Below the pieces are notes generated by a model. That model worked only from the letters and a program-made list of their open reading frames with translations. It was not told the DNA's origin and searched no databases. From IMG/VR virus record IMGVR_UViG_2721755498_000006, positions 1 to 52,298 of that record: a DNA stretch of 52,298 nucleotides. One strand, written 5' to 3'. The position numbers and the translations under genes are program-made. Positions 1-52,298 of the stretch are shown piece after piece; the first letter of the stretch is position 1; each line of letters opens with the position of its first letter. Origin of the DNA: a virus. Taxonomy: Duplodnaviria; Heunggongvirae; Uroviricota; Caudoviricetes.

Positions 1-3000
1 ATGCTGAAACGTCTGTTAAGTAAACTGACGGGAAACCGTCAGCAGATAGAACATCACCTAAAAAATCAGTACCAGGTTGAGGAAAACGGACTTAGCTTTC
101 CGCTATCGCTGGTTGATGATTCGCAGCTTTGGGCACTGGCATCCTGGCTAGAACAACTGGCTGAAGAAGACTATCTGATATCACTTACAGACCGGTGGTT
201 GTTGAGTTGGGACGCACTGTATCGCCTGCTGGAGGATGAGGAACATGCCAGCAGCCTGCCTCTTATCGGTGTACCTGACGTACTGCCTTTACGCGCAAGC
301 CTGAGTTCACGAGGAGCATTAAGCGATAGCGATTTTCGCGTCTGGATTGCTGAATGGGCTACGCTTCCAGCCCGCAAGCCGATCCGTTTCAGTCGTACCG
401 GTGCCATTTTAACCCATGAAAATCAGCAATACCTGTTATCGCGTGAAAACTGGGCACTCTTACAGGCAACAGAACAACTCAGTGCACAGAAAAATCAGAC
501 TCCTGGTGAAACCACTAACCAGTTGGGATGGGCCGCTATCCGCAAATGTGCGAAGCAAGCAGCCGCAAAATTTGATGATTATTTAGAAAAAACGCATGTC
601 GTCAAACCAACTTCATTGTCATTACGTCTGCGTAAAGCAACGGTTGCCGATACTGCTGTTATCGAAATTGAGCCCCATTTCGAGGACCAGCCTGCTAACT
701 GGCTAGGCAGTTTTGACAAAAACTCGCAGGTTCACGATAGCTACCGCATCCCTGGAGAGAATGGCGAACTCAGCCATGTCATTATCCCTCCCGAAGTGAA
801 AGAAGTCCTGAATTCAATACACTCGATTCCAGGCCGTCGAGTGGCCGGAAGCGAAGCGCTTTCCTTTGTTCGCAATCCTTATACCTTCCTGGGTGAAGAT
901 GCCGCCAGTGTTATTGCCCCTGAAGAACATGAACAGGCACTGTTTGATGCCAGGATTTTCTTTCATCATTTCAGGTTGATACCGCAACTGAATGCGGAAA
1001 ATAAGATCGCAGAAGTTACGCTGGTACTTGAGCCTGTTTCACCTGTTCCCCAGCCAGAAATCACTTTTGGGTTCTCAGCCCCCCGGGAGCTGGATAAATT
1101 CATACAGCAACTCGGTATTAGCGTCGCTGCACAGATGCCTGCCGGTTCATGGCAAGGTTACGAGCTGGAATTAAGTCAGTTCACTGAACAGCAGTGGCAC
1201 GATTGCCAGGCACTTCTAACTCGCTGGCAGCAAGAAATAGAAGGAAAAGAATTTAGCGATGTGCTGGATATTGCGAAGTATGGCGATCGCGTGATTGGCA
1301 TTGGTGAATTTGAAAAAATCTCCTCTCCCTGGCTGACCAAAGCGCAGAGTGAAAACTGGCTTCCAGATGACATCGATTTCTCCGCGTTTTCAGTCGAAAC
1401 ACTGTCTGGCTGGCAACCTGAAAACCTTCACCATTTCGATGAACTGCAGGAGAGAATTACTCAGGCAGAAGCTGTAGGTGAAACGCATATCACCGCACCA
1501 TGGAATGACAGCCAATTACCGTTGGATGCTGCTAAAACCTTCAGTAAGAACTGGGAAAAACAGCAAAGCACTGCAAATGAATCTCAAGGCAACGTTGCAG
1601 ATAAAACGGCCCGAGCCGTACTCAAAATTGAGCAGAATATTGAAGAAACGGCCTACATCAAACAGCGCCGCAATTCACTCCTCAATGCGCGTCATGCCGA
1701 GCCTGAAATTCCTCTGAGCCTTAAAGAGCATATCCGACTCAAAGACCATCAACGTGAAGGCGTAGCCTGGCTCCAGCAACTCTTCCTTCGTTCACCTGAG
1801 GAAACCGCAGGTTGCCTGCTGGCGGATGATATGGGGCTTGGGAAAACGCTGCAAATTCTGAGCTTCCTGGTATGGTTCATTGAAAAATTCCCGCAAGAAC
1901 CGCCCAGTCTCATTGTTGCTCCTGTCTCTCTTTTAGATAACTGGGAACGTGAACTGGACAATTTCTTCTATACCGCAGGAATACCGGTATTGAAATTGTA
2001 TGGCGAGACCATTAAAGCGGTGAAATATCCCAAACAGGCTATCCCTGCTCATCTGCAATCTCAGGGGATCAAAAACCTGCTTAAACCTGGCTGGCAGGGT
2101 GAGGCGAAAATCATCCTGACAACCTACGAAACGCTTCGCGACCAGGAGTTTTCTCTGGCACGCCAGCCGTGGTCCATTATGGTGTGCGACGAGGCACAAA
2201 AAATAAAAAACCCAGCTGCGTTAATCACACATGCGGCCAACGCGGTACAAGCCAGGTTTAAAGTGGCATGTACAGGAACACCTGTCGAAAACACACTTGT
2301 CGACCTGTGGAGCTTATTTGATTTTGCCCAGCCAGGATTGTTAGGGGCACTAAATGAATTTGGTAAACACTATGTTCGCCCCATCGAGAACGAAGATGGC
2401 CGCGATACGGAACGGTTGGAAAGCCTGCGAGCGCTGATAGAACCTCAGACTTTACGCCGAACCAAAGAAGAGGTTGCGCGTGATTTACCTCAGAAAATTG
2501 AAGTGGAAAGCTGCAAGCAATTGACGTTGTCTGGCGTGCAAAAACAGCTCTACCTTTCGTCCGTTGCAAATTGGCAACAACAGCAAGCACTGAGCGAAGG
2601 GATGCAGCAGGCCGGAACCGGTATGTTAGGTTTGTTACACCGACTGAAACTCATCTGTGCACACCCTGCAGTAGTTAATCCAGAACCACGTTTTCGTGAT
2701 AACTCACCCAAGCTTAACTGGCTGCTGAAAATACTCGCAGAACTAAAACACACCACGAAAGATAAGGTCATTATTTTTACGGAGCTTCGAGATTTACAGC
2801 GCGAACTTCAACATGCGATCCACCAAAAGTTTGGTTTCCGCCCTGTCATTATCAATGGTGATACCAGCACTAAAAGTCAAAGTCAAAACAGCCGCCAGCG
2901 CCTGATTGATGATTTTCAGGCTCAGCCTGGGTTTGGGGTGATTATTCTCTCTACGGTTGCCGTCGGATTCGGCGTTAACGTCCAGAAAGCCAATCATGTT

Positions 3001-3243
3001 ATTCATTTCACTCGCTGCTGGAACCCAGCCAAAGAAGATCAGGCAACAGACCGGGCGTACCGAATTGGGCAAACTAAAGATGTGTATGTCTATTACCCGA
3101 CGGTGAAGGACACTGAAATCACCACATTTGAAGAAACACTGGATGACCTTCTGCAGCGTCGACGTGCATTGGCCAGAGATATGCTCTGCGCTACTCCCGA
3201 TTTGAGTGGTGCGGATTTTGAGGCCATTTTGAAGGGGGCTTAA
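1..3243 (+). CDS. SNF2/Swi2-family helicase-ATPase with ~580-aa N-terminal domain of unknown function; ORF begins at the first base of the window
   Basis: 1080-aa ORF; motifs LLADDMGLGKT (motif I), VCDEAQKIKN (DEAQ box) and QATDRAYRIGQ (motif VI) in the C-terminal half; no motif recognised in the N-terminal half; not RapA-like at the N-terminus. Confidence 0.85.
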   Translation: MLKRLLSKLTGNRQQIEHHLKNQYQVEENGLSFPLSLVDDSQLWALASWLEQLAEEDYLISLTDRWLLSWDALYRLLEDEEHASSLPLIGVPDVLPLRASLSSRGALSDSDFRVWIAEWATLPARKPIRFSRTGAILTHENQQYLLSRENWALLQATEQLSAQKNQTPGETTNQLGWAAIRKCAKQAAAKFDDYLEKTHVVKPTSLSLRLRKATVADTAVIEIEPHFEDQPANWLGSFDKNSQVHDSYRIPGENGELSHVIIPPEVKEVLNSIHSIPGRRVAGSEALSFVRNPYTFLGEDAASVIAPEEHEQALFDARIFFHHFRLIPQLNAENKIAEVTLVLEPVSPVPQPEITFGFSAPRELDKFIQQLGISVAAQMPAGSWQGYELELSQFTEQQWHDCQALLTRWQQEIEGKEFSDVLDIAKYGDRVIGIGEFEKISSPWLTKAQSENWLPDDIDFSAFSVETLSGWQPENLHHFDELQERITQAEAVGETHITAPWNDSQLPLDAAKTFSKNWEKQQSTANESQGNVADKTARAVLKIEQNIEETAYIKQRRNSLLNARHAEPEIPLSLKEHIRLKDHQREGVAWLQQLFLRSPEETAGCLLADDMGLGKTLQILSFLVWFIEKFPQEPPSLIVAPVSLLDNWERELDNFFYTAGIPVLKLYGETIKAVKYPKQAIPAHLQSQGIKNLLKPGWQGEAKIILTTYETLRDQEFSLARQPWSIMVCDEAQKIKNPAALITHAANAVQARFKVACTGTPVENTLVDLWSLFDFAQPGLLGALNEFGKHYVRPIENEDGRDTERLESLRALIEPQTLRRTKEEVARDLPQKIEVESCKQLTLSGVQKQLYLSSVANWQQQQALSEGMQQAGTGMLGLLHRLKLICAHPAVVNPEPRFRDNSPKLNWLLKILAELKHTTKDKVIIFTELRDLQRELQHAIHQKFGFRPVIINGDTSTKSQSQNSRQRLIDDFQAQPGFGVIILSTVAVGFGVNVQKANHVIHFTRCWNPAKEDQATDRAYRIGQTKDVYVYYPTVKDTEITTFEETLDDLLQRRRALARDMLCATPDLSGADFEAILKGA

Positions 3244-3764: not shown

Positions 3765-4478
3765 CTACAGGAACGGTTTCAATAACATCGGATCAATGAT
3801 CCCCTCTGGAAAATCGTAAAGATGCTGACGCGCTGTCGTCTCCTTCAGTCCCGCTGCTTTAGCAAAATCGCTGACGGAGTAGCCTTCAGGCCACCAGCTC
3901 TGATAGTAAATATCAAAATACTGCCCCCACTCTGCGCTCATCGGGCGTCGTGATAGCTGTCGGGCAGCAGATTTCTGAGTCAGTTGATATTTCACAATAT
4001 ATTCACCAACGCTAAGACCATTCTCGACTTTTTCGCGCTGAAACTGGCGACGATGGTAAACCCAGAACAGCGCCCTAAGCGATGCGCCACCAGCTTTATG
4101 CAGCGCATTCCAGGCTCTGCGGTGCGGTATCCTGTAGCGTTGCGCGTATTCGGTTTGTGTAATGCCATGCAGAATCGCTTCACGACGATAATTTTGCTTG
4201 TGCCAGGCCCAGTCAATCTTCCAGCGGTCGCATCGCTCGCTGTAGTCCTGAGCTCTTTTCTGGCGGGCAACAGGCAACTTCAGAAAGTTTTCAAAGAGTG
4301 TATCCAGCGAGCACGCAACCGGATGGATATGCTGCGTTTGCAGACGTATCTCATTGGGCGTAAGTGGGCGATATTCGAGCCCCGTTAGACGTTCCAGCCG
4401 CCATTCATGATAGTTTTTTCGACGACGTCTATTCCCGGCATACTTCAAACGATACAGTGCCTGTTCAGCGTATGACAT
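3765..4478 (-). CDS. hypothetical protein; C-terminal ~55 aa paralogous to the C-terminus of the upstream 360-aa protein
   Basis: 237-aa ORF; 14-nt overlap with upstream gene (translational coupling); shared C-terminal block (W..YFD.YY..WP.G.SV...A...L...TAR..L.D.P). Confidence 0.5.
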   Translation of the reverse strand: MSYAEQALYRLKYAGNRRRRKNYHEWRLERLTGLEYRPLTPNEIRLQTQHIHPVACSLDTLFENFLKLPVARQKRAQDYSERCDRWKIDWAWHKQNYRREAILHGITQTEYAQRYRIPHRRAWNALHKAGGASLRALFWVYHRRQFQREKVENGLSVGEYIVKYQLTQKSAARQLSRRPMSAEWGQYFDIYYQSWWPEGYSVSDFAKAAGLKETTARQHLYDFPEGIIDPMLLKPFL

Positions 4479-5547
4479 ATTGAATCTCCTTTTGAAGCCA
4501 ACCCCTCAGGATGCCAGGTGAGATAACTGCTGGTGGATAATCGCAGAGATAACGCCGGGCTGTTGAAGGATTTAAATCGTGCCAATTACAGTACTGAGCG
4601 ACGCTGACTCCGCAGGGCCAGTAATTGTCGTAATAGCGATCGAAATGCCGTAGCCAGTGAGGAGATAGTTGAGGTTTTTCAGCTGCTTTTCCGCGCTGAT
4701 ACAGCTTCAGTAAACGCTGAATGCTGCGAATCTGGCTATTTGTTTCATAATCCAGAGAGTCAATCTCTGCGGGTTCATTATCACCGAGAAATAACGGGTC
4801 AAGCTTACCTGGCAGCGGACAGTAACGTTCGGCAGGTGGCTGGCATTGCTTGAGTTTGGCTGGAGTCCTGGGTTTAGGCTTTTGTTGCTTCAGTACTTTG
4901 TAGTGCTTGCGTCCGTACAACGGAATATGTTTTGCGATTCCGGTCTTAGTGGCGTATTTAGCGAAATAGCTCAACCTTAACAGAAGCTCCCCCAGGGTCT
5001 GCGAATCGCGCTTATGGACCATGTAGTATCCGTTTTTGGGAAACCAAACTTTCCCGTTAGTTGCCGAACTCCAGGTCTTCTCCACCAGCCCATTCAATAC
5101 CTTTGGTGTACGTATGTGGTTCCCGTCCACCATGAGCACACAGTGATAGTGCTGCGCTGTCGCTTTGTCATGCTCACGAACCCAGAATATATCGAAAAAA
5201 GACTTTGGATAACGAGCACGTAATACCTGGGCTAATTGCTGGCAGAAGTCCGAAATAACCTGATTGTCATCTGTATAGCTCTTGAGATGTAAATCATAGC
5301 GAACAGCCAGAAAACGCGAAGTCCGCAGATAGGTTTGATTCACCGTATCAAAAAGGGCTTCCATGATCCTGGAATCATACTCTCCCTCTGCATGAAGTAT
5401 CGGCCAGAACACTTCGTCATACAGAAAGTATCCTTGAGCATTAATCCACTGAGCTGCTTGCGAGGCCGGTATATTATTAATTACCGATGGTTTCTCGAAC
5501 TGATGATCTCTATATTTTTCTAATTTATTCATTGAGTTACACAACAC
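4465..5547 (-). CDS. HUH-motif rolling-circle Rep-like protein (inovirus gpII / YfjJ-YagK-like as I recall the family)
   Basis: 360-aa ORF with HYHCVLMV (HUH) and downstream YFAKYATK (YxxK) motifs; directly downstream of alpA as in CP4-type islands; family name from memory, not searched. Confidence 0.5.
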   Translation of the reverse strand: MLCNSMNKLEKYRDHQFEKPSVINNIPASQAAQWINAQGYFLYDEVFWPILHAEGEYDSRIMEALFDTVNQTYLRTSRFLAVRYDLHLKSYTDDNQVISDFCQQLAQVLRARYPKSFFDIFWVREHDKATAQHYHCVLMVDGNHIRTPKVLNGLVEKTWSSATNGKVWFPKNGYYMVHKRDSQTLGELLLRLSYFAKYATKTGIAKHIPLYGRKHYKVLKQQKPKPRTPAKLKQCQPPAERYCPLPGKLDPLFLGDNEPAEIDSLDYETNSQIRSIQRLLKLYQRGKAAEKPQLSPHWLRHFDRYYDNYWPCGVSVAQYCNWHDLNPSTARRYLCDYPPAVISPGILRGWLQKEIQYVIR

Positions 5548-5599
5548 TTCATTCAGTGCTAATACAGCGTTTTAATCTGTAATTGTATTTCACGTTGTT

Positions 5600-5872
5600 T
5601 CACTGGATAAAAAAAAGCCGGACAAACCGGCTTAGGATGCAAAATGAATCTAATAAGTGTGATTTACTCAACCACTCCTCATACTGGCTGGCAGTCCAGC
5701 CGAGTGTTCTCCCTTGAATTTTACGGGGCTCAGGAAAAACCCCCTCATTCACCCAACGCCAGAGAGTAGTACGGCTGACTGCCAGCAGCTCAATCATGTG
5801 GTTGATTCGAATCAATCGCTGGGGCTCATGGAAGAAACGGATATTGCTTGAAAAGGTGTTTTCTTGTTCCAT
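5600..5872 (-). CDS. alpA: AlpA-family HTH regulator (prophage/island excision regulator type)
   Basis: 90-aa ORF; core RLIRINHMIELLAVSRTTLWRWVNEGVFPEPRKIQGRTLGWTASQYEEWL matches the AlpA pattern. Confidence 0.65.
   Translation of the reverse strand: MEQENTFSSNIRFFHEPQRLIRINHMIELLAVSRTTLWRWVNEGVFPEPRKIQGRTLGWTASQYEEWLSKSHLLDSFCILSRFVRLFFIQ
5609..5632 (-). terminator. intrinsic terminator (AGCCGG-N5-CCGGCU followed by U8) lying inside the last codons of the alpA ORF
   Basis: hairpin plus U-run read on minus strand; ORF stop codon is ~7 nt beyond the U-run. Confidence 0.5.
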
Positions 5873-5993
5873 AAAGATTCCTTAAATCAGGAGTAACGAT
5901 ATGAAACAAGAGTAATTTTCTGATCGCGTGAGGTCGTGCATACCTTAGCAATGGAATCCGAATACCTTTACTATTTAGCTGATAAATATAACT

Positions 5994-6851
5994 TTATTTT
6001 TTACTCTTTTTCCGTTTTTCGTGTCCGGCAGTACGTAATGATTCGAATCCTTGAAAGGTTTCATCCTGAAGGATATTTCTTGTCTCGCGTAAATTTCGTT
6101 TGATAACCTCTGCGCTATGCGGAGGCTCCTTAATGGTAGGCCAGAAAAATGCCGCATACTTATAGAGCAGTTTTTCGAGATTACTGGCATTTGGCAGGCA
6201 ATGACCATAGCTATCAGGCTTGAGCTTACCCTCTGCATCCAGCTTGTAGAGTATAGCGATGACTGCCCGATAGACTTCTTCACGCATTGCAGCATAGGAC
6301 TCTCCTCGTGCTGCAGGTTCACGGGCAGCGGCTAGCAGCTTATCCCTCTCAACTTTCAGGCTCTCAATCTCCTCCTCAAGTTTTCTCACATAATCGCTGA
6401 CAGCAGGAGCTGGGGATTTTTCAATATCAATGCCCAGTACCCGGATAATATCGGCACGGCGCAGTGCGAACTGCTCCAGATCGGCTTCACCAAGGGGGTA
6501 TTTTTGTACTGAAGTGATCATCTCTTCGGGGCTGTCATAACGCCCGTTAGTCACCCTAAGCAATGCAGGAGTTAACTCTGGTCGTCCACTGGAATAATCA
6601 TACTTTGGTATAAATCCAAACTCTCGCCATGAGTCCTGAAGAGATTCACGTTTGTAAAGAGGAGGCTTATGTTCATTCAGGCATTTGAGTAGCTGAAGGC
6701 TGAGCACATTAAGCGATTGATCCGGGAATCGTTTTTGCAGTGCTATGTAAAGCTCGTAAATAGAAATAAACCCAGTATCCGCTTCTGCTACCTGGCGCTG
6801 CTTTTGTCTTTGCTGCTCAATAATCTCATCAAAACTCATTTTCAAACCCAT
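5994..6851 (-). CDS. hypothetical protein (predicted coiled-coil, Lys-rich C-terminus)
   Basis: ORF track 5994..6896; start moved to MGLKM preceded by GGAGAAG; no recognised motif. Confidence 0.4.
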   Translation of the reverse strand: MGLKMSFDEIIEQQRQKQRQVAEADTGFISIYELYIALQKRFPDQSLNVLSLQLLKCLNEHKPPLYKRESLQDSWREFGFIPKYDYSSGRPELTPALLRVTNGRYDSPEEMITSVQKYPLGEADLEQFALRRADIIRVLGIDIEKSPAPAVSDYVRKLEEEIESLKVERDKLLAAAREPAARGESYAAMREEVYRAVIAILYKLDAEGKLKPDSYGHCLPNASNLEKLLYKYAAFFWPTIKEPPHSAEVIKRNLRETRNILQDETFQGFESLRTAGHEKRKKSKK

Positions 6852-7077
6852 CAAACACTTCTCCGATACGGCGGCACATTCTGCAACACCATGCATTATA
6901 TAGGGATTTTATTCACGCGTTCGGGAATGAAACTACGATACTACCCAACTGATTGTCAGATGATTAGCGGAAAATGGTGGTTGGCTATGCCGTGTTAAAC
7001 AAGTACGCCAGTAAGTACGCGAAAAGAAATTCAGTAGATTTTATTGAAAGAGACTTGAGCTAACTTATTGATTTTAA

Positions 7078-7126
7078 TGGTGCCGATAATAGGAGTCGAA
7101 CCTACGACCTTCGCATTACGAATGCG
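7078..7126 (-). repeat. att copy: 49-nt direct repeat of the thrW 3' end (plus ~17 nt of matching flank at 7061-7077)
   Basis: tggtgccgataataggagtcgaacctacgaccttcgcattacgaatgcg identical to 50855-50903. Confidence 0.9.
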
Positions 7127-7184
7127 TAAATTGATCTTGTAAAATCAATACCTATCGAATTTAAATGGATTTTTTGCCACAATA

Positions 7185-8288
7185 TTGCCACAGTTCGTTA
7201 GGAATCAGACAGAAATGGCGACTATACGCAAACGTGGTAACTACCAATGGGAAGCTCAAATCCGTAAACGTGGTTTTCCCTCTCAAACCAAAACCTTTAA
7301 CACCAAAGTAGAAGCAGAAGCTTGGGCCAAAATGATCGAGTCAGAAATGGCGAGAGGAGTTTGGCTTAGCCGCAGCGAAGCGGAATCTACGACATTGTAT
7401 GAAGCCCTAACGCGATATGAAAAAGAGATTGTTCCCGACAAAAAAGGGGCAGTGCAAGACCGATCATTGGTGCGGATACTAAAAGCCACTCAGCTGGCGA
7501 AAAACTATATGGCCAGCATCAGGAGTGCCGATGTCGCCAAGCTGAGAGATGAATGGTTGAAAATCTATGCTCCTGCAACCGTTTTAAGGCGTTTGGCCTT
7601 ACTTTCTCATGTATTCAATGTTTCGCGGAAAGAATGGGGCATGGAGAGCCTGCTGAACCCCGTAGAGGCCATTCGCAAACCCCAACCCAAGAACTCCAGG
7701 ACCAGACGCCTGGAAGCGCTGCCTGTAGTTTCTGAGAAAACCGGTGTTACGTCAGGAAAGCAAATAGCCAACGAGATCGAACATATCATCGCCGCAACAC
7801 ATTCATTAGTATTGCCAGCAATCATTCTTCTGGCGTTAGAGACAGCCATGCGCCGTAGCGAAATCGCAGAGCTTCGATGGCGCTTTATCGATCTTGATCG
7901 GCGAGTTGCACATCTGCCGGATACTAAGAATGGTAATGCCCGCGATGTCCCTTTATCAACGAAAGCCATTACGATACTGTCCAGTCTCAAGGAACATTCT
8001 AAGCCAGCTGCTGATAAGGTTTTTGATATGCGTGCAGACGCGATTACCCGAGCTTTTGACCGAGCTGTAAAACGAGCCAGAGAACGATACGAGAAAACAA
8101 ACTCATTATGTGATGAATCTTTCCTTAAAGATTTAAGATTTCATGACCTTCGACATGAAGCAACTTCTCGACTTGCTGAAATTTTCCCTATGCATGAACT
8201 AACCAAAATTACAGGACATAAAGATCCAAGAATGCTAATGCGGTATTATCATCCAAAAGCTGAAGATTTGGCGTTAAAGTTGAAATAA
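7185..8288 (+). CDS. int: tyrosine recombinase / integrase of the middle integrative element
   Basis: R..HxxR..Y catalytic signature (ETAMRRSE, HDLRHEATS, MRYYH); starts ~60 nt from att copy; likely true start at MATIRKRG (~7215); TGCCACAAT-A-TTGCCACA arm-type repeat just upstream. Confidence 0.85.
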   Translation: MPQFVRNQTEMATIRKRGNYQWEAQIRKRGFPSQTKTFNTKVEAEAWAKMIESEMARGVWLSRSEAESTTLYEALTRYEKEIVPDKKGAVQDRSLVRILKATQLAKNYMASIRSADVAKLRDEWLKIYAPATVLRRLALLSHVFNVSRKEWGMESLLNPVEAIRKPQPKNSRTRRLEALPVVSEKTGVTSGKQIANEIEHIIAATHSLVLPAIILLALETAMRRSEIAELRWRFIDLDRRVAHLPDTKNGNARDVPLSTKAITILSSLKEHSKPAADKVFDMRADAITRAFDRAVKRARERYEKTNSLCDESFLKDLRFHDLRHEATSRLAEIFPMHELTKITGHKDPRMLMRYYHPKAEDLALKLK

Positions 8289-8297
8289 GGACGTTGT

Positions 8298-8987
8298 ATG
8301 GATTATAAAAATAAGTTAGTTGATGCATCACCAAAATTAAACAACCCTCAACTATTGGCTATAATATACTTAATACCTTTTGGATACTTGATTGTAGAAA
8401 ACCCATTATGGCTAGAAAATATATACATTGCCGCTCCAATTTTCCTATCATCTATAGCTTTATTAACCAGTGTATACATAGGATATCGTGATTTATTAAA
8501 TAAAGTATTTAATAATGCAGTAGTTAAATGGGGCGTAACTGGCTTTACATATTCCGTATGCTTATGGATCGCAAAGTTTAAGCTTGACATAGCTTATGGT
8601 ATAGTCCCAGAAAACCTTAATTACTCGACATTAGCTTATGCTTTCATGCTCTCATTTCCAATAGGGGCAATGATTTGTGCAATTACAGTCTATATATACA
8701 TATTTTTGCGAGATGTATCCCCAGCAAAAATAGTAATATCCTCTATGATTTCAGTATATATTGGAAGCTTGGCTCAACATCATATACAGGTGAACAATCT
8801 TCCTGAAAAAATAATATTAATAGGACTTATAATTATGGTCCCCTATAACATGGTCAATTTAGCTAGTTCATTAGTTATTAAAAGGAAATTTAATTTTAAT
8901 CGTTTAGTATCAGGCTTATCCCTTTTTGCTGTGTCAGTTGCTCTTTTTATTATTAGCATGACAGCGGTAATGACTCCAACTTATTGA
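8298..8987 (+). CDS. AT-rich polytopic membrane protein, 3' end interrupted by IS1
   Basis: 229-aa hydrophobic ORF; reading frame runs into IS1 left end at 8966 so the last residues are IS1-encoded. Confidence 0.5.
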
Positions 8988-9484
8988 TAGTGTTTTATGT
9001 TCAGATAATGCCCGATGACTTTGTCATGCAGCTCCACCGATTTTGAGAACGACAGCGACTTCCGTCCCAGCCGTGCCAGGTGCTGCCTCAGATTCAGGTT
9101 ATGCCGCTCAATTCGCTGCGTATATCGCTTGCTGATTACGTGCAGCTTTCCCTTCAGGCGGGATTCATACAGCGGCCAGCCATCCGTCATCCATATCACC
9201 ACGTCAAAGGGTGACAGCAGGCTCATAAGACGCCCCAGCGTCGCCATAGTGCGTTCACCGAATACGTGCGCAACAACCGTCTTCCGGAGCCTGTCATACG
9301 CGTAAAACAGCCAGCGCTGGCGCGATTTAGCCCCGACGTATCCCCACTGTTCGTCCATTTCCGCGCAGACGATGACGTCACTGCCCGGCTGTATGCGCGA
9401 GGTTACCGACTGCGGCCTGAGTTTTTTAAGTGACGTAAAATCGTGTTGAGGCCAACGCCCATAATGCGGGCTGTTGCCCGGCAT
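8981..9484 (-). CDS. insB: IS1 InsB (transposase made as InsAB' by -1 frameshift)
   Basis: 167-aa [29 protein letters not shown]...; overlaps insA. Confidence 0.95.
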
Positions 9485-9678
9485 CCAACGCCATTCATGG
9501 CCATATCAATGATTTTCTGGTGCGTACCGGGTTGAGAAGCGGTGTAAGTGAACTGCAGTTGCCATGTTTTACGGCAGTGAGAGCAGAGATAGCGCTGATG
9601 TCCGGCGGTGCTTTTGCCGTTACGCACCACCCCGTCAGTAGCTGAACAGGAGGGACAGCTGATAGAAACAGAAGCCAC
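9403..9678 (-). CDS. insA: IS1 InsA
   Basis: 91-aa [43 protein letters not shown]... Confidence 0.95.
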
Positions 9679-9809
9679 TGGAGCACCTCAAAAACACCAT
9701 CATACACTAAATCAGTAAGTTGGCAGCATCACCTCAATCCGCATGACTTTAAAAAAGACAATTTTTAGAAATAAGCCGGATAAAAAAATAGCTTTATCCG
9801 GCACTCATA

Positions 9810-10760
9810 TTACAACCAGTTCTTCCGCTTAAAGTACAGATACGGTGCCAGGCCCGCGAGGATCATAAAGATAATCGCGGCAGGGTAGCCGAAGCTCCAC
9901 TTCAGTTCTGGCATAAACTCAAAGTTCATGCCATAGCTGGAAGCAACGAGCGTCGGCGGCAGGAATACCACGGATACCACCGAGAAGATTTTGATGATGC
10001 GGTTCTGCTCGATGTTGATAAAACCCATTGCCGCCTGCATCAGGAAGTTCACCTTCTGGAACAGGGATTCGTTATGCGGCAGCAGGGATTCGATATCTCG
10101 CAGGATTTCACGCGCCTGCTCCAGTTGCCCACCCGGTAAACGCGCTTTACGCACCAGGAAGTTGAGCGCGCGCTGGGTATCCATCAGACACAGGCGAACT
10201 TTCCAGCCGATATCTTCCAGTTCCGCCAGAGTGGAGAGCGCCTCGTCGTACTCATCGCCCTGATGCCCTTCCATAATCACCCGGCTCAACTGCTCCAGGT
10301 CGCTATAGATATTTTCAATTTCATCTGCCAACTGTTCGATTTTGGTTTCGAACAGATCCAGCAGCAACTCGTAGGCGTTACCGTCTACCATCGACTGGCT
10401 ACGGGCACGCATACGATACAGACGAAAAGCGGGCAGTTCACGCTCACGCAGAGTAAACAGACGACCATCACGGATGGTAAATGCCACAGTGGAGTTACCG
10501 GCGTGATCTTCCGCATCTTCAAAGAAGAAGAAGGAGTGAATATGCAGGCCGTCGTCGTCTTCAAAGAAACGTGCCGATGCTTCGATGTCTTCCAGTTCCG
10601 GGCGGGTTGCCAGGCTCTGGCCAAGTTCAGATTGTAAGCGCAGTCGCTCGTCGTCGTCCGGTTCGACAAGATCAATCCATACTGCATTTACAAGGGGTTG
10701 TGACTCTTCGACTTCCAGCCGGGTCAGTCGGTTATTTTCCAGTTGAAATGCGCTCAGCAT
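9810..10760 (-). CDS. corA: magnesium/cobalt transporter CorA
   Basis: [34 protein letters not shown] ... [11 protein letters not shown] ... matches E. coli CorA as I recall it; GMN motif present. Confidence 0.95.
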
Positions 10761-11129
10761 GACCGGGACTCCCAATGCTTAAAATATCGGACAGTTCGGT
10801 GGGCACACAGAAACAAATTGGGTTTCAGACCATTAAACAGCCTGACTCAGCGCGACGGGAAAAATTGAGGTCGCTGACAACCGCTAAGGCTATCAGCAAA
10901 AAGGGATAGCCTTAGGAGTTGATCCTGGATGACAGGATAGTGAGCCAGTATCTACTGGGTGTGTCCAAGGCGAATGTCCTCTTAGAGTGATCGTGCGCGC
11001 ATGTTACGCCAGCAAAATTTTGCCGTCAACACGCAACAGAACACCACAGAACAATAGTTGAACTTCGCGCTTTTTGGTACTCGTCAAGGTCGCTAACAGG
11101 ATAAAAAAATCCCACATCCAGGACCTATA

Positions 11130-11417
11130 ATGGCGCATCAGCTACTCATTGGTAAAGGAATGATCACCTTGAATCTCAAACGGATTTTTCTCGCCCTCAC
11201 CTTACTTCCCTTGTTTGCTGTTGCCGCTGATGATTGCGCACTCTCAGATCCGACGCTGACCGTACAGGCGTATACCGTTAATCCTCAAACAGAGCGGGTG
11301 AAAATGTACTGGCAAAAAGCCAATGGCGAAGCGTGGGGAACGTTACATGCTCTGCTGGCGGATATTAATAGTCAGGGTCAGGTGCAGATGGCGATGAACG
11401 GCGGCATCTATGATGAA
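11130..11417 (+). pseudogene. 5' fragment of a signal-peptide protein gene (yigE-like by position upstream of corA) truncated by IS1
   Basis: ORF with signal-peptide-like N-terminus runs into IS1 copy 2; identification as yigE is inference from K-12 gene order. Confidence 0.45.
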
Positions 11418-11471
11418 GGGATGCTGCCAACTTACTGATTTAGTGTATGATGGTGTTTTTGAGGTGCTCCA

Positions 11472-11747
11472 GTGGCTTCTGTTTCTATCAGCTGTCCCTC
11501 CTGTTCAGCTACTGACGGGGTGGTGCGTAACGGCAAAAGCACCGCCGGACATCAGCGCTATCTCTGCTCTCACTGCCGTAAAACATGGCAACTGCAGTTC
11601 ACTTACACCGCTTCTCAACCCGGTACGCACCAGAAAATCATTGATATGGCCATGAATGGCGTTGGATGCCGGGCAACAGCCCGCATTATGGGCGTTGGCC
11701 TCAACACGATTTTACGTCACTTAAAAAACTCAGGCCGCAGTCGGTAA
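11472..11747 (+). CDS. insA: IS1 InsA
   Basis: identical translation to 9403..9678. Confidence 0.95.
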
Positions 11748-12169
11748 CCTCGCGCATACAGCCGGGCAGTGACGTCATCGTCTGCGCGGAAATGGACGAA
11801 CAGTGGGGATACGTCGGGGCTAAATCGCGCCAGCGCTGGCTGTTTTACGCGTATGACAGGCTCCGGAAGACGGTTGTTGCGCACGTATTCGGTGAACGCA
11901 CTATGGCGACGCTGGGGCGTCTTATGAGCCTGCTGTCACCCTTTGACGTGGTGATATGGATGACGGATGGCTGGCCGCTGTATGAATCCCGCCTGAAGGG
12001 AAAGCTGCACGTAATCAGCAAGCGATATACGCAGCGAATTGAGCGGCATAACCTGAATCTGAGGCAGCACCTGGCACGGCTGGGACGGAAGTCGCTGTCG
12101 TTCTCAAAATCGGTGGAGCTGCATGACAAAGTCATCGGGCATTATCTGAACATAAAACACTATCAATAA
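11666..12169 (+). CDS. insB: IS1 InsB
   Basis: identical translation to 8981..9484. Confidence 0.95.
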
Positions 12170-33063: not shown

Positions 33064-33139
33064 TGGTGCTGGTTAACGGACTTGAACCGCTACCCATTCG
33101 CTTACAAGGCGACTGCTCTACCATTGGAGCTAAACCAGC
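33064..33139 (-). tRNA. tRNA-Thr (anticodon UGU) in the Q-S interval
   Basis: hand-folded cloverleaf: 7-bp acceptor GCUGGUU/AACCAGC, D-stem GCUC/GAGC, T-loop UUCAAGU, anticodon loop CUUGUAA, 3' CCA encoded. Confidence 0.75.
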
Positions 33140-33144
33140 ATATT

Positions 33145-33219
33145 TGGCGGGACAGCGTGGACTCGAACCACGATAAGAAGGTTAACAGCCTTCCGTAATG
33201 ACCTTTATACGACTGACCC
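33145..33219 (-). tRNA. tRNA-Asn (anticodon GUU)-like, slightly imperfect acceptor and D stems
   Basis: anticodon stem GAAGG/CCUUC, loop CUGUUAA, T-arm CGUGG-UUCGAGU-CCACG, CCA encoded; one U-U mismatch in acceptor stem. Confidence 0.55.
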
Positions 33220-50854: not shown

Positions 50855-50930
50855 TGGTGCCGATAATAGGAGTCGAACCTACGACCTTCGCATTACGAAT
50901 GCGCTGCTCTACCAACTGAGCTATATCGGC
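50855..50930 (-). tRNA. thrW: tRNA-Thr (anticodon CGU), intact; attR-side att site
   Basis: GCCGATATAGCTCAGTTGGTAGAGCAGCGCATTCGTAATGCGAAGGTCGTAGGTTCGACTCCTATTATCGGCACCA on minus strand. Confidence 0.95.
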
Positions 50931-51044: not shown

Positions 51045-52298
51045 TTACGCACGAATGGTGTAATCACCAATGCCGATCCACTTGTAAGTGGTCAGTGCTT
51101 CCAGCCCCATTGGGCCACGCGCGTGGAGTTTTTGTGTGCTTACCGCCACTTCCGCACCCAGACCAAACTGGCCGCCGTCGGTAAAACGCGTAGAGGCGTT
51201 AACGTAAACAGCGGACGAATCCACTTCGTTAACAAAACGCTGGGCGTTGCGCATATCGCGGGTCAGGATCGCATCGGAGTGTTGTGTGCCGTGTTCACGA
51301 ATATGGGCGATGGCATCGTCAATATCGCTGACGATTTTGACGTTCAAATCTAATGACAGAAACTCATCGTCATACTCTTCGGCTTTAACAGCAACCACCT
51401 TCGCAGGGCCTGCCTGCAACTGCGCCAGTGCAGCTGCATCTGCGTGTAATGTCACGCCGCTTTCCGCCATTTGTTTGCTTAATGCGGGCAGGAAGCTATC
51501 GGCGATGTTTTTATTCACCAGCAACGTTTCAACCGTATTACATGTGCTCGGACGCTGAGTTTTCGCGTTGACGATCACTTTTAATGCTTCAGCGATCTCT
51601 ACACTTTCATCAACGTAAATATGGCATACGCCTATACCACCTGTGATCACCGGGATTGTCGACTGTTCACGGCACAGTTTATGCAAACCAGCGCCACCAC
51701 GCGGGATCAGCATGTCGATGTATTTATCCATACGCAGCATTTCACTGACCAGCGCACGGTCAGGATTATCAATCGCCTGCACGGCACCCGCCGGTAAGCC
51801 GCAGGATTTCAGGGCGTCCTGAATCACCGCCACCGTTGCAGCGTTAGTGCGACACGTTTCTTTGCCACCGCGCAGGATCACCGCATTACCGGTTTTCAGG
51901 CACAGCGAAGCGACATCAACCGTCACGTTCGGGCGCGCTTCATAAATCACGCCAATAACCCCCAGCGGTACGCGACGACGCTCAAGACGCAGGCCGCTGT
52001 CCAGTACGCCGCCATCGATTACCTGCCCCACCGGATCGGCGAGGTTGCACACCTGACGTACATCGTCGGCAATGCCTTTCAGCCGTGCGGGCGTCAGTGC
52101 CAGACGGTCAAGCATCGCTTCGCTAAGGCCATTGGCTCGCGCGTCAGCAACATCCTGGGCGTTAGCGTTGAGGATGATTTCGCTTTGTGCTTCCAGTTCA
52201 TCGGCGATTTTTTCCAGCACGCGATTTTTTTCGCGGCTGGAGAGTTGCGCTAATTTATACGAGGCTTGCTTCGCGGCAATGCCCATTTGTTTCAGCAT
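51045..52298 (-). CDS. proA: gamma-glutamyl phosphate reductase
   Basis: 417 aa beginning [38 protein letters not shown]; start codon is the last 3 nt of the window. Confidence 0.95.

What the first reader, a model, noticed from the sequence alone, without database searches (positions are those of the whole stretch)
1..3243. Large SNF2-family helicase with an uncharacterised 580-aa N-terminal domain, abutting the window edge in island cargo
The ORF starts at base 1 and has a complete SNF2 ATPase core (GKT motif I, DEAQ box, QxxDRxxRxGQ motif VI) fused to an N-terminal half in which I recognise nothing. It is convergent with the alpA / HUH-Rep module of an island next to a tRNA integration hotspot, a context where helicase-based anti-phage systems (DISARM DrmD, Druantia, AbpAB-type) are common. 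The N-terminal domain does not resemble RapA as I recall it. Because it is the last gene reading in from beyond the window, the rest of a multi-gene system may lie upstream. This is my best candidate for an undescribed system, and most of it is probably outside this window.
Basis: partly seen in the sequence, partly recalled or inferred. Interest (0 to 1): 0.7.

Follow-up and report, generated by a model that had tools for sequence, protein, structure and literature searches.

The report
Known Zorya ZorD, orphaned by IS26
The large helicase-like gene at the window's left edge is ZorD, the well-studied DNA-degrading effector of the type I Zorya anti-phage system, and in this E. coli strain an IS26 insertion has removed its essential partner genes, so it is an ordinary, probably inactive remnant.

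Summary
The ORF is real: window 1..3243 (+), 1080 aa, with an SNF2 ATPase core at residues 583-1023 and no Pfam family in residues 1-580. It is not undescribed. It passes NCBIfam's equivalog cutoff for type I Zorya ZorD (1822.7 vs 1500 bits). It is 100% identical to RefSeq-annotated zorD in E. coli genomes carrying intact zorA1-zorB1-zorC-zorD. It is 96.4% identical to the EcZorD whose full-length cryo-EM structures are PDB 8qy7/8qyc.

Hu et al. (Nature 2024, PMC11946911) characterised the N-terminal half (residues 1-502). It packs on the Snf2 C-terminal domain in a toroid, and full-length ZorD is autoinhibited. The isolated C-terminal domain is an ATP-dependent nuclease. ZorC/ZorD give no defence without ZorAB.

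The window is E. coli strain H1. There IS26 abuts zorC at nucleotide 610, and zorA, zorB and the first 203 zorC codons are gone from the locus. This copy is therefore an intact effector gene in a broken system. Novelty: already known. Interest: low.

The parts
1..3243 (+). zorD, complete CDS (1080 aa), the type I Zorya effector; RefSeq protein WP_000919795.1
   Evidence: ORF confirmed. NCBIfam NF041790 ZorD equivalog scores 1822.7 bits against a 1500 cutoff. 100% DNA identity to annotated zorD in E. coli. 1080/1080 aa identical to zorD of an intact operon. PDB 8qy7 aligns 1-1080.
1..1506 (+). ZorD N-terminal domain (residues 1-502 as defined for EcZorD). It packs against the C-terminal domain, and full-length ZorD is autoinhibited.
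   Evidence: No Pfam family. 95.6% identical to the solved EcZorD over this domain. Domain boundaries, toroid structure and autoinhibition come from PMC11946911.
1507..3240 (+). ZorD C-terminal Snf2-related domain (residues 503-1080), with ATP-dependent nuclease activity in vitro for EcZorD
   Evidence: Pfam SNF2-rel_dom 583-890 and Helicase_C 904-1023. K615, E651, D730, E731 and Q733 are conserved. D730A/E731A and E651A abolish nuclease activity in EcZorD.
3765..6896 (-). Island backbone genes convergent with zorD: hypothetical (3765-4478), YagK/YfjJ Rep-G2P-like (4465-5547), AlpA HTH (5600-5872), hypothetical (5994-6896)
   Evidence: Pfam PF11726, PF23343 and PF05930. The same four genes follow zorD in strains with intact Zorya.
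7078..7126 (-). 49-nt copy of the 3' half of thrW (tRNA-Thr), the att-site remnant marking the island end
   Evidence: Identical to thrW for 49 nt, then diverges. ARAGORN finds no tRNA here. Rfam tRNA scores 22.3 bits, below the gathering score of 29.
50855..50930 (-). Complete thrW tRNA-Thr(CGT), the integration hotspot, next to proA (51045-52298)
   Evidence: ARAGORN; RefSeq annotation.

Best explanation
Window 1..3243 encodes ZorD, the Snf2-family effector of a type I Zorya anti-phage system (zorA1-zorB1-zorC-zorD) carried on a defence island at the thrW tRNA-Thr site of E. coli. The mechanism below was established for a 96.4%-identical orthologue and is inferred here by near-identity. ZorA5B2 is a proton-driven inner-membrane rotary motor with a cytoplasmic tail of about 70 nm that senses phage perturbation of the envelope. 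It recruits ZorC, which binds DNA, and ZorD. ZorD is a toroid in which the N-terminal domain (1-502) packs on the Snf2 C-terminal domain (503-1080), and the full-length protein is autoinhibited. Once released, the C-terminal domain degrades phage DNA in an ATP-dependent manner that needs the DEAQ box (D730/E731) and E651. In this genome (E. coli strain H1) the system is broken. An IS26 copy abuts zorC at nucleotide 610, and zorA, zorB and the first 203 codons of zorC are absent from the locus. ZorC/ZorD give no protection without ZorAB, so this zorD is most likely a recently orphaned effector gene with an intact sequence but no defence function.
For: Family assignment: the NCBIfam ZorD equivalog scores 1822.7 bits against a 1500 cutoff and covers residues 1-1033. 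PADLOC ZorD model PDLC00632 scores 1574 bits end to end. Identity: 100% nucleotide identity to RefSeq-annotated zorD in many E. coli genomes; 1080/1080 aa identical to zorD of strain 2018-11-3CC, which has zorA1, zorB1 and zorC directly upstream; 1079/1080 identical to E24377A zorD in the same operon. Structure: PDB 8qy7/8qyc align 1-1080, with 96.4% identity over the 957 residues compared and K615, E651, D730, E731 and Q733 conserved. Mechanism: PMC11946911, echoed in PMC12904381 and PMC11890865. Decay in this genome: window 1-12000 matches only strain H1 at 100% over its full length. The H1 annotation shows IS26, then zorC 'missing N-terminus', then zorD. The alignment places the IS26 terminal repeat (TTTGCAACAGTGCC) at L001 10927 and the zorC remnant from 10928, which is zorC nucleotide 610. 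H1 is absent from the 60 best genomes for zorA-zorB-5'zorC, a list that includes every full-length copy at 99.8% identity or more. 85 genomes hold that segment at 80% coverage or more, against 86 for zorD. No sigma-70 consensus promoter lies between IS26 and zorD.
Against: No experiment was done on this allele or strain. Function is transferred from a 96.4%-identical protein. The consensus promoter scan is crude and cannot exclude read-through or hybrid-promoter transcription from IS26, so zorD may still be expressed. I could not list all 89 genomes that match zorABC', so a fragment of zorA or zorB elsewhere in H1 is not strictly excluded; a complete near-identical copy is. Nuclease activity from an Snf2 domain that lacks a canonical nuclease motif rests on one laboratory's in vitro assays with a truncated protein. 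No Mrr_cat domain was found here, although older annotations describe one for ZorD.
Confidence: 0.95

Rival explanations
1. The gene is part of an undescribed helicase-based defence system, with novel partners upstream of the window.
For: Residues 1-580 have no Pfam family. The gene sits on an island at a tRNA hotspot.
Against: The whole protein, N-terminal half included, matches the curated ZorD equivalog model above its cutoff and a solved full-length structure. The upstream genes in 85 E. coli genomes are zorA1, zorB1 and zorC. In the source genome the upstream neighbours are a zorC pseudogene and IS26.
Confidence: 0.01
2. It is DpdE, the SNF2-like helicase of the Dpd 7-deazaguanine DNA-modification and restriction system. 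The best-scoring PADLOC model carries that name.
For: PADLOC model PDLC02854, named 'DpdE', matches residues 1-1079 at 2484.9 bits. That is higher than any model named ZorD.
Against: NCBIfam's DpdE equivalog scores 29.3 bits against a cutoff of 500. No dpdA, dpdB or dpdC-like genes flank the gene in any genome examined; the neighbours are zorA1, zorB1 and zorC. The 96.4%-identical protein was shown experimentally to function in Zorya. The PADLOC label is best read as a naming overlap in that library.
Confidence: 0.01
3. The orphaned zorC'-zorD remnant in strain H1 keeps a biological activity without ZorAB, for example low-level DNA nicking, or defence together with another membrane sensor.
For: zorD is still 100% intact. 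Mariano et al. report that over-expressing ZorCD alone alters the migration of genomic DNA in alkaline gels, which suggests single-strand breaks.
Against: ZorC and ZorD alone give no phage protection. Full-length ZorD is autoinhibited in vitro. ZorC here lacks its first 203 residues. No consensus promoter was found upstream. The 100% identity fits a very recent IS26 event rather than selection.
Confidence: 0.04

Closest known systems
EcZorD of the E. coli NCTC9026 type I Zorya system (PDB 8qy7 apo, 8qyc with ATP-gamma-S; Hu et al., Nature 2024, PMC11946911)
   Same: Same length (1080 aa) and an end-to-end alignment. 96.4% identity over the 957 residues compared: 95.6% in the N-terminal domain and 97.4% in the C-terminal domain. 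The Walker A lysine, E651 and the DEAQ box D730-Q733 are identical. The operon position, last gene after zorC, is the same in sibling strains.
   Different: There are 34 substitutions in the 957 residues compared, none at the residues mutated in the paper. In this genome the partner genes zorA and zorB are missing and zorC is truncated.
ZorD of E. coli E24377A (WP_000919796.1). By my recollection this is the type I Zorya system first tested by Doron et al. 2018; I could not verify that here because the paper is not held.
   Same: 1079/1080 aa identical. The downstream island genes are the same, and a type I RM with DUF4268 lies upstream.
   Different: One substitution, G278S. E24377A has the complete operon.
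Eukaryotic and archaeal Snf2/Rad54-type remodeller ATPases (e.g. Sulfolobus Rad54-like 1z63, ISW1 7x3t, INO80)
   Different: They have no counterpart of the N-terminal domain (1-502), do not depend on a membrane motor, and are not reported to degrade DNA.
   Same: SNF2 or helicase C-terminal homology, and an anti-phage island context.
   Different: Only local matches far below the family cutoffs: DrmD 57-76 bits against 610-950. The partner genes differ.

Membership tests
ZorD (type I Zorya effector) | The full-length sequence matches the curated ZorD equivalog model above its trusted cutoff | tested here: met
   NF041790 scores 1822.7 bits against a cutoff of 1500, covering protein 1-1033 and profile 1-1035/1035.
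ZorD (type I Zorya effector) | A C-terminal Snf2-related ATPase with a DEAQ box and the residues needed for activity (D730, E731, E651) | tested here: met
   Pfam SNF2-rel_dom and Helicase_C. D730, E731, Q733, E651 and K615 are all present.
ZorD (type I Zorya effector) | A ZorD-specific N-terminal domain (about 500 aa) homologous to that of the solved EcZorD | tested here: met
   Aligned from residue 1 to PDB 8qy7; 95.6% identity over residues 1-502.
ZorD (type I Zorya effector) | ATP-dependent nuclease activity, autoinhibited in the full-length protein | not testable with these tools
   Shown for the 96.4%-identical EcZorD; inferred here.
Complete type I Zorya system (zorA, zorB, zorC, zorD) in this genome | zorA and zorB (the MotAB-like 5:2 motor) encoded with zorC and zorD in one operon | tested here: not met
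   In strain H1 the locus reads IS26, truncated zorC, zorD, with no zorA or zorB in the 12 kb upstream. H1 is not among the genomes with a full zorA-zorB-5'zorC copy. Sibling strains with an identical ZorD do have all four genes.
Complete type I Zorya system (zorA, zorB, zorC, zorD) in this genome | An intact zorC | tested here: not met
   The IS26 end abuts zorC nucleotide 610, so the first 203 of 560 codons are lost.
Dpd system DpdE | A match to the curated DpdE equivalog, plus dpdA/dpdB/dpdC neighbours | tested here: not met
   NF041062 scores 29.3 bits against a cutoff of 500. The neighbours are zor genes. The 2484.9-bit hit to a PADLOC model named DpdE is a labelling overlap.
DISARM DrmD | A match to the DrmD equivalog above its cutoff | tested here: not met
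   NF038318 scores 75.6 against 950; NF038317 scores 57.3 against 610.
RapA (RNA polymerase-associated SNF2 protein) | A match to the RapA equivalog above its cutoff | tested here: not met
NF003426 scores 29.4 against 576.

The most novel reading that the evidence does not exclude
The intact zorD, left behind with a 5'-truncated zorC after IS26 removed zorAB, might be retained because it has a ZorAB-independent activity. That could be basal DNA nicking, or co-option by another envelope sensor in strain H1. In that case it would not simply be a very recent remnant awaiting decay.
Probability: 0.04. Interest if true: 0.35.

Novelty: already known. Interest (0 to 1): 0.07.

Why it matters
It matters little as a discovery, because the gene, its system, its structure and its mechanism are published. 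The useful outcomes are practical.

- A protein that looks 'half unknown' to Pfam is fully covered by NCBIfam, PADLOC and the PDB. Defence-specific libraries should therefore be consulted before calling novelty.
- This copy is an example of IS26-mediated inactivation of a defence system. Defence-system finders that count single marker genes could miscall strain H1 as Zorya-positive.
- The best PADLOC hit carries the name DpdE, a labelling trap for automated annotation.

Tried and rejected
- **DISARM DrmD, BREX BrxH, RapA and DpdE:** all score far below the curated cutoffs, so I rejected them.
- **The PADLOC 'DpdE' top hit:** I rejected it as the identity of the gene, because of its gene neighbours, the NCBIfam score and the experimental literature.
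- **A tRNA gene at the island end (window about 7078-7189), where RefSeq annotates a 112-nt 'tRNA-Ser':** ARAGORN finds nothing. Rfam scores it below threshold. The alignment shows only 49 nt of thrW. I treat it as an att remnant, not a gene.
- **A promoter that could drive the orphaned zorC'-zorD from IS26:** no consensus site was found. This is weak negative evidence.
- **Doron et al. 2018, to verify that E24377A was the originally tested system:** the paper is not held, and a full-text search for Zorya plus E24377A found nothing. That point stays marked as recollection.
- **An exact-match walk between L001 and L002 in Python:** L002 was not exported to the sandbox, so I used DNA alignment instead.
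- **Searches not run:** structure prediction, fold search and the large protein-database searches were not run, because a solved structure of a 96.4%-identical protein makes them redundant.

Full report
**Observation.** Frame 1 of the + strand is open from an ATG at base 1 to a stop codon ending at 3243, giving 1080 aa. Pfam places an SNF2-related domain at residues 583-890 (E 4e-59) and Helicase_C at 904-1023 (E 4e-17). Residues 1-580 scanned alone match no Pfam family. Base 1 is the gene's genuine start codon and overlaps the stop of the upstream gene by one base in the source genome, so the ORF is complete.

**Identity.** NCBIfam's equivalog model for 'type I Zorya anti-phage system protein ZorD' (NF041790) matches residues 1-1033 at 1822.7 bits, above its curated cutoff of 1500. 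DrmD, DpdE and RapA equivalogs score 29-76 bits against cutoffs of 500-950. PADLOC's ZorD model PDLC00632 matches end to end at 1574 bits. Oddly, a PADLOC model named 'DpdE' (PDLC02854) scores higher still, at 2484.9 bits. Given everything below, I read that as a labelling overlap in the library.

Megablast against 5,426 complete E. coli genomes finds the 3243 bases at 100% identity in many chromosomes, all annotated zorD. In total 142 genomes hold a match, 86 of them covering at least 80% of the gene.

**Source genome and what lies beyond the window edge.** Window 1-12000 matches one genome at 100% over its full length: E. coli strain H1, NZ_CP010160.1. The window is the reverse complement of 3,347,767-3,400,064.

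In sibling strains whose ZorD is 1080/1080 identical (strain 2018-11-3CC) or 1079/1080 identical (E24377A), the upstream genes are zorA1, zorB1 and zorC. Beyond them lie a type I restriction-modification system with a DUF4268 gene, a UvrD-helicase gene pair and an integrase.

In strain H1 itself the upstream neighbours are a zorC pseudogene 'missing N-terminus' and an IS26 transposase. Aligning H1 with the intact strain places the IS26 terminal inverted repeat (…TTTGCAACAGTGCC) at locus position 10927. Homology to zorC resumes at 10928, which is zorC nucleotide 610. The first 203 of 560 ZorC codons, and all of zorA and zorB, are thus gone from the locus.

Further upstream in H1 is unrelated DNA: a truncated GGDEF gene and a guaD/NCS1/hpxA/puuE cluster. 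That DNA is absent from the 42 kb upstream of the island in the intact strain.

A search with zorA-zorB-5'zorC lists every full-length copy at 99.8% identity or more, and H1 is not among them. 85 genomes hold that segment at 80% coverage or more, against 86 for zorD, which fits H1 being the one genome with zorD only. I could not list all 89 matching records, so a fragment elsewhere in H1 is not strictly excluded.

**What is known about the protein.** The PDB holds two full-length entries (8qy7, 8qyc; 1080 aa) that align 1-1080 with the window protein. Over the 957 residues printed, identity is 96.4%: 95.6% in residues 1-502 and 97.4% in 503-957. K615, E651, D730, E731 and Q733 are unchanged.

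These structures are EcZorD from E. coli NCTC9026 (Hu et al., Nature 2024, PMC11946911). The paper reports the following:

- **Fold.** The N-terminal domain (Met1-Asn502) contacts the C-terminal Snf2-related domain (Asp503-Ala1080) to form a toroid. ATP-gamma-S binds beside the DEAQ box.
- **Activity.** Full-length ZorD does not degrade DNA. The isolated C-terminal domain degrades plasmid and phage DNA, and D730A/E731A or E651A abolish this.
- **Role of ZorC.** ZorC does not relieve the autoinhibition.
- **Dependence on ZorAB.** ZorC and ZorD without ZorAB give no protection.
- **Sensing and recruitment.** ZorA5B2 is a proton-driven 5:2 rotary motor with a cytoplasmic tail of about 70 nm. It senses phage invasion and recruits ZorC and ZorD, which then degrade incoming phage DNA locally.

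Later literature repeats this model (PMC12904381; PMC11890865). The latter adds that over-expressed ZorCD alters genomic DNA migration in alkaline gels. The older description of a 'Mrr-like nuclease' in ZorD (quoted and in the PADLOC descriptions) is not borne out here, since Pfam finds no Mrr_cat domain.

**Mechanism for this copy.**
- Shown: the sequence is a ZorD with all characterised catalytic residues intact, and in its genome zorAB are absent from the locus and zorC is truncated.
- Inferred from the near-identical orthologue: the protein would be an autoinhibited, ATP-dependent DNA-degrading effector that needs ZorAB for recruitment and activation.
- Inferred from both: in strain H1 the gene is a recently orphaned, probably non-functional remnant. 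The 100% identity to alleles in intact operons points to a very recent IS26 event rather than long-term retention.

No sigma-70 consensus promoter lies between IS26 and zorD. That is only weak evidence against expression.

**Context within the window.** The genes convergent with zorD are a hypothetical (3765-4478), a YagK/YfjJ / Rep-G2P-like protein (4465-5547), an AlpA HTH protein (5600-5872) and a second hypothetical (5994-6896). The same four genes follow zorD in intact strains.

In intact strains the island ends at thrW, next to proA. In H1 only 49 nt of the thrW 3' half remain there (about 7078-7126). ARAGORN finds no tRNA at that site, and Rfam's tRNA model scores 22.3 bits, below the gathering score of 29. 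Between this remnant and the true thrW (50855-50930) lie a second integrase element (7185-8987), an IS1-corA-IS1 segment (8981-12169) and a P22-like prophage (12965-50840). The 'tRNA integration hotspot' reading is correct.

**Verdict.** The finding is a correct observation of a gene that is already known in detail. It is a member, and essentially an allele, of the experimentally and structurally characterised E. coli type I Zorya ZorD. The only specific feature of this instance is that the system is broken by IS26. Novelty: already known. Interest: low.

Noticed in passing
window 8981-12169: The core genes corA and ysgD sit between two inverted IS1A copies inside the pile of mobile elements at thrW. 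This is far from their usual chromosomal neighbourhood and suggests an IS1-mediated rearrangement, or a transposed second copy.
   Followed up: no
window 12965-50840: A complete-looking P22-like prophage is integrated at thrW. It has an integrase next to the tRNA, portal, P22-type capsid, gp4/gp10, ejection proteins and a head-binding tailspike-like protein. It also carries an O-antigen acyltransferase, an anti-RecBCD gene, an N6-adenine methyltransferase and two phage tRNAs (Thr-TGT 33064-33139, Asn-GTT 33145-33219).
   Followed up: partly
window 7078-7189: RefSeq annotates a 112-nt 'tRNA-Ser' here. It is really a 49-nt thrW 3'-half att remnant fused to foreign sequence. ARAGORN finds no tRNA, and Rfam scores it 22.3 bits against a gathering score of 29.
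   Followed up: yes
window 1-3243 (library issue): The PADLOC-DB v2 model PDLC02854, named 'DpdE', matches this ZorD end to end at 2484.9 bits. That is above every model named ZorD, while NCBIfam's DpdE equivalog scores only 29.3 bits. This is a likely mislabelled or overlapping model that could mis-annotate Zorya as Dpd.
   Followed up: partly
L001 1-10927 (upstream of the window in strain H1): IS26 joins the zorC remnant to a truncated GGDEF gene and a guaD / NCS1 transporter / GntR / hpxA / puuE purine-allantoin cluster, flanked further out by IS1 and IS150. That DNA is not found within 42 kb upstream of the island in an intact strain, which suggests IS26-mediated replacement rather than a simple deletion.
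   Followed up: partly
L005 33308-42001 and L002 1-7281 (intact sibling strain): The intact thrW defence island also carries a tyrosine recombinase, a gene pair of a hypothetical protein and a 1010-aa UvrD-helicase-domain protein, and a type I RM system with an embedded DUF4268 gene. The UvrD pair may be another defence module; I did not examine it.
   Followed up: no
window 3765-4478, 5994-6896, 8298-8987: Three island ORFs of 237, 300 and 229 aa have no Pfam family at E <= 0.01. The first two are conserved next to zorD in all the Zorya islands examined.
   Followed up: no
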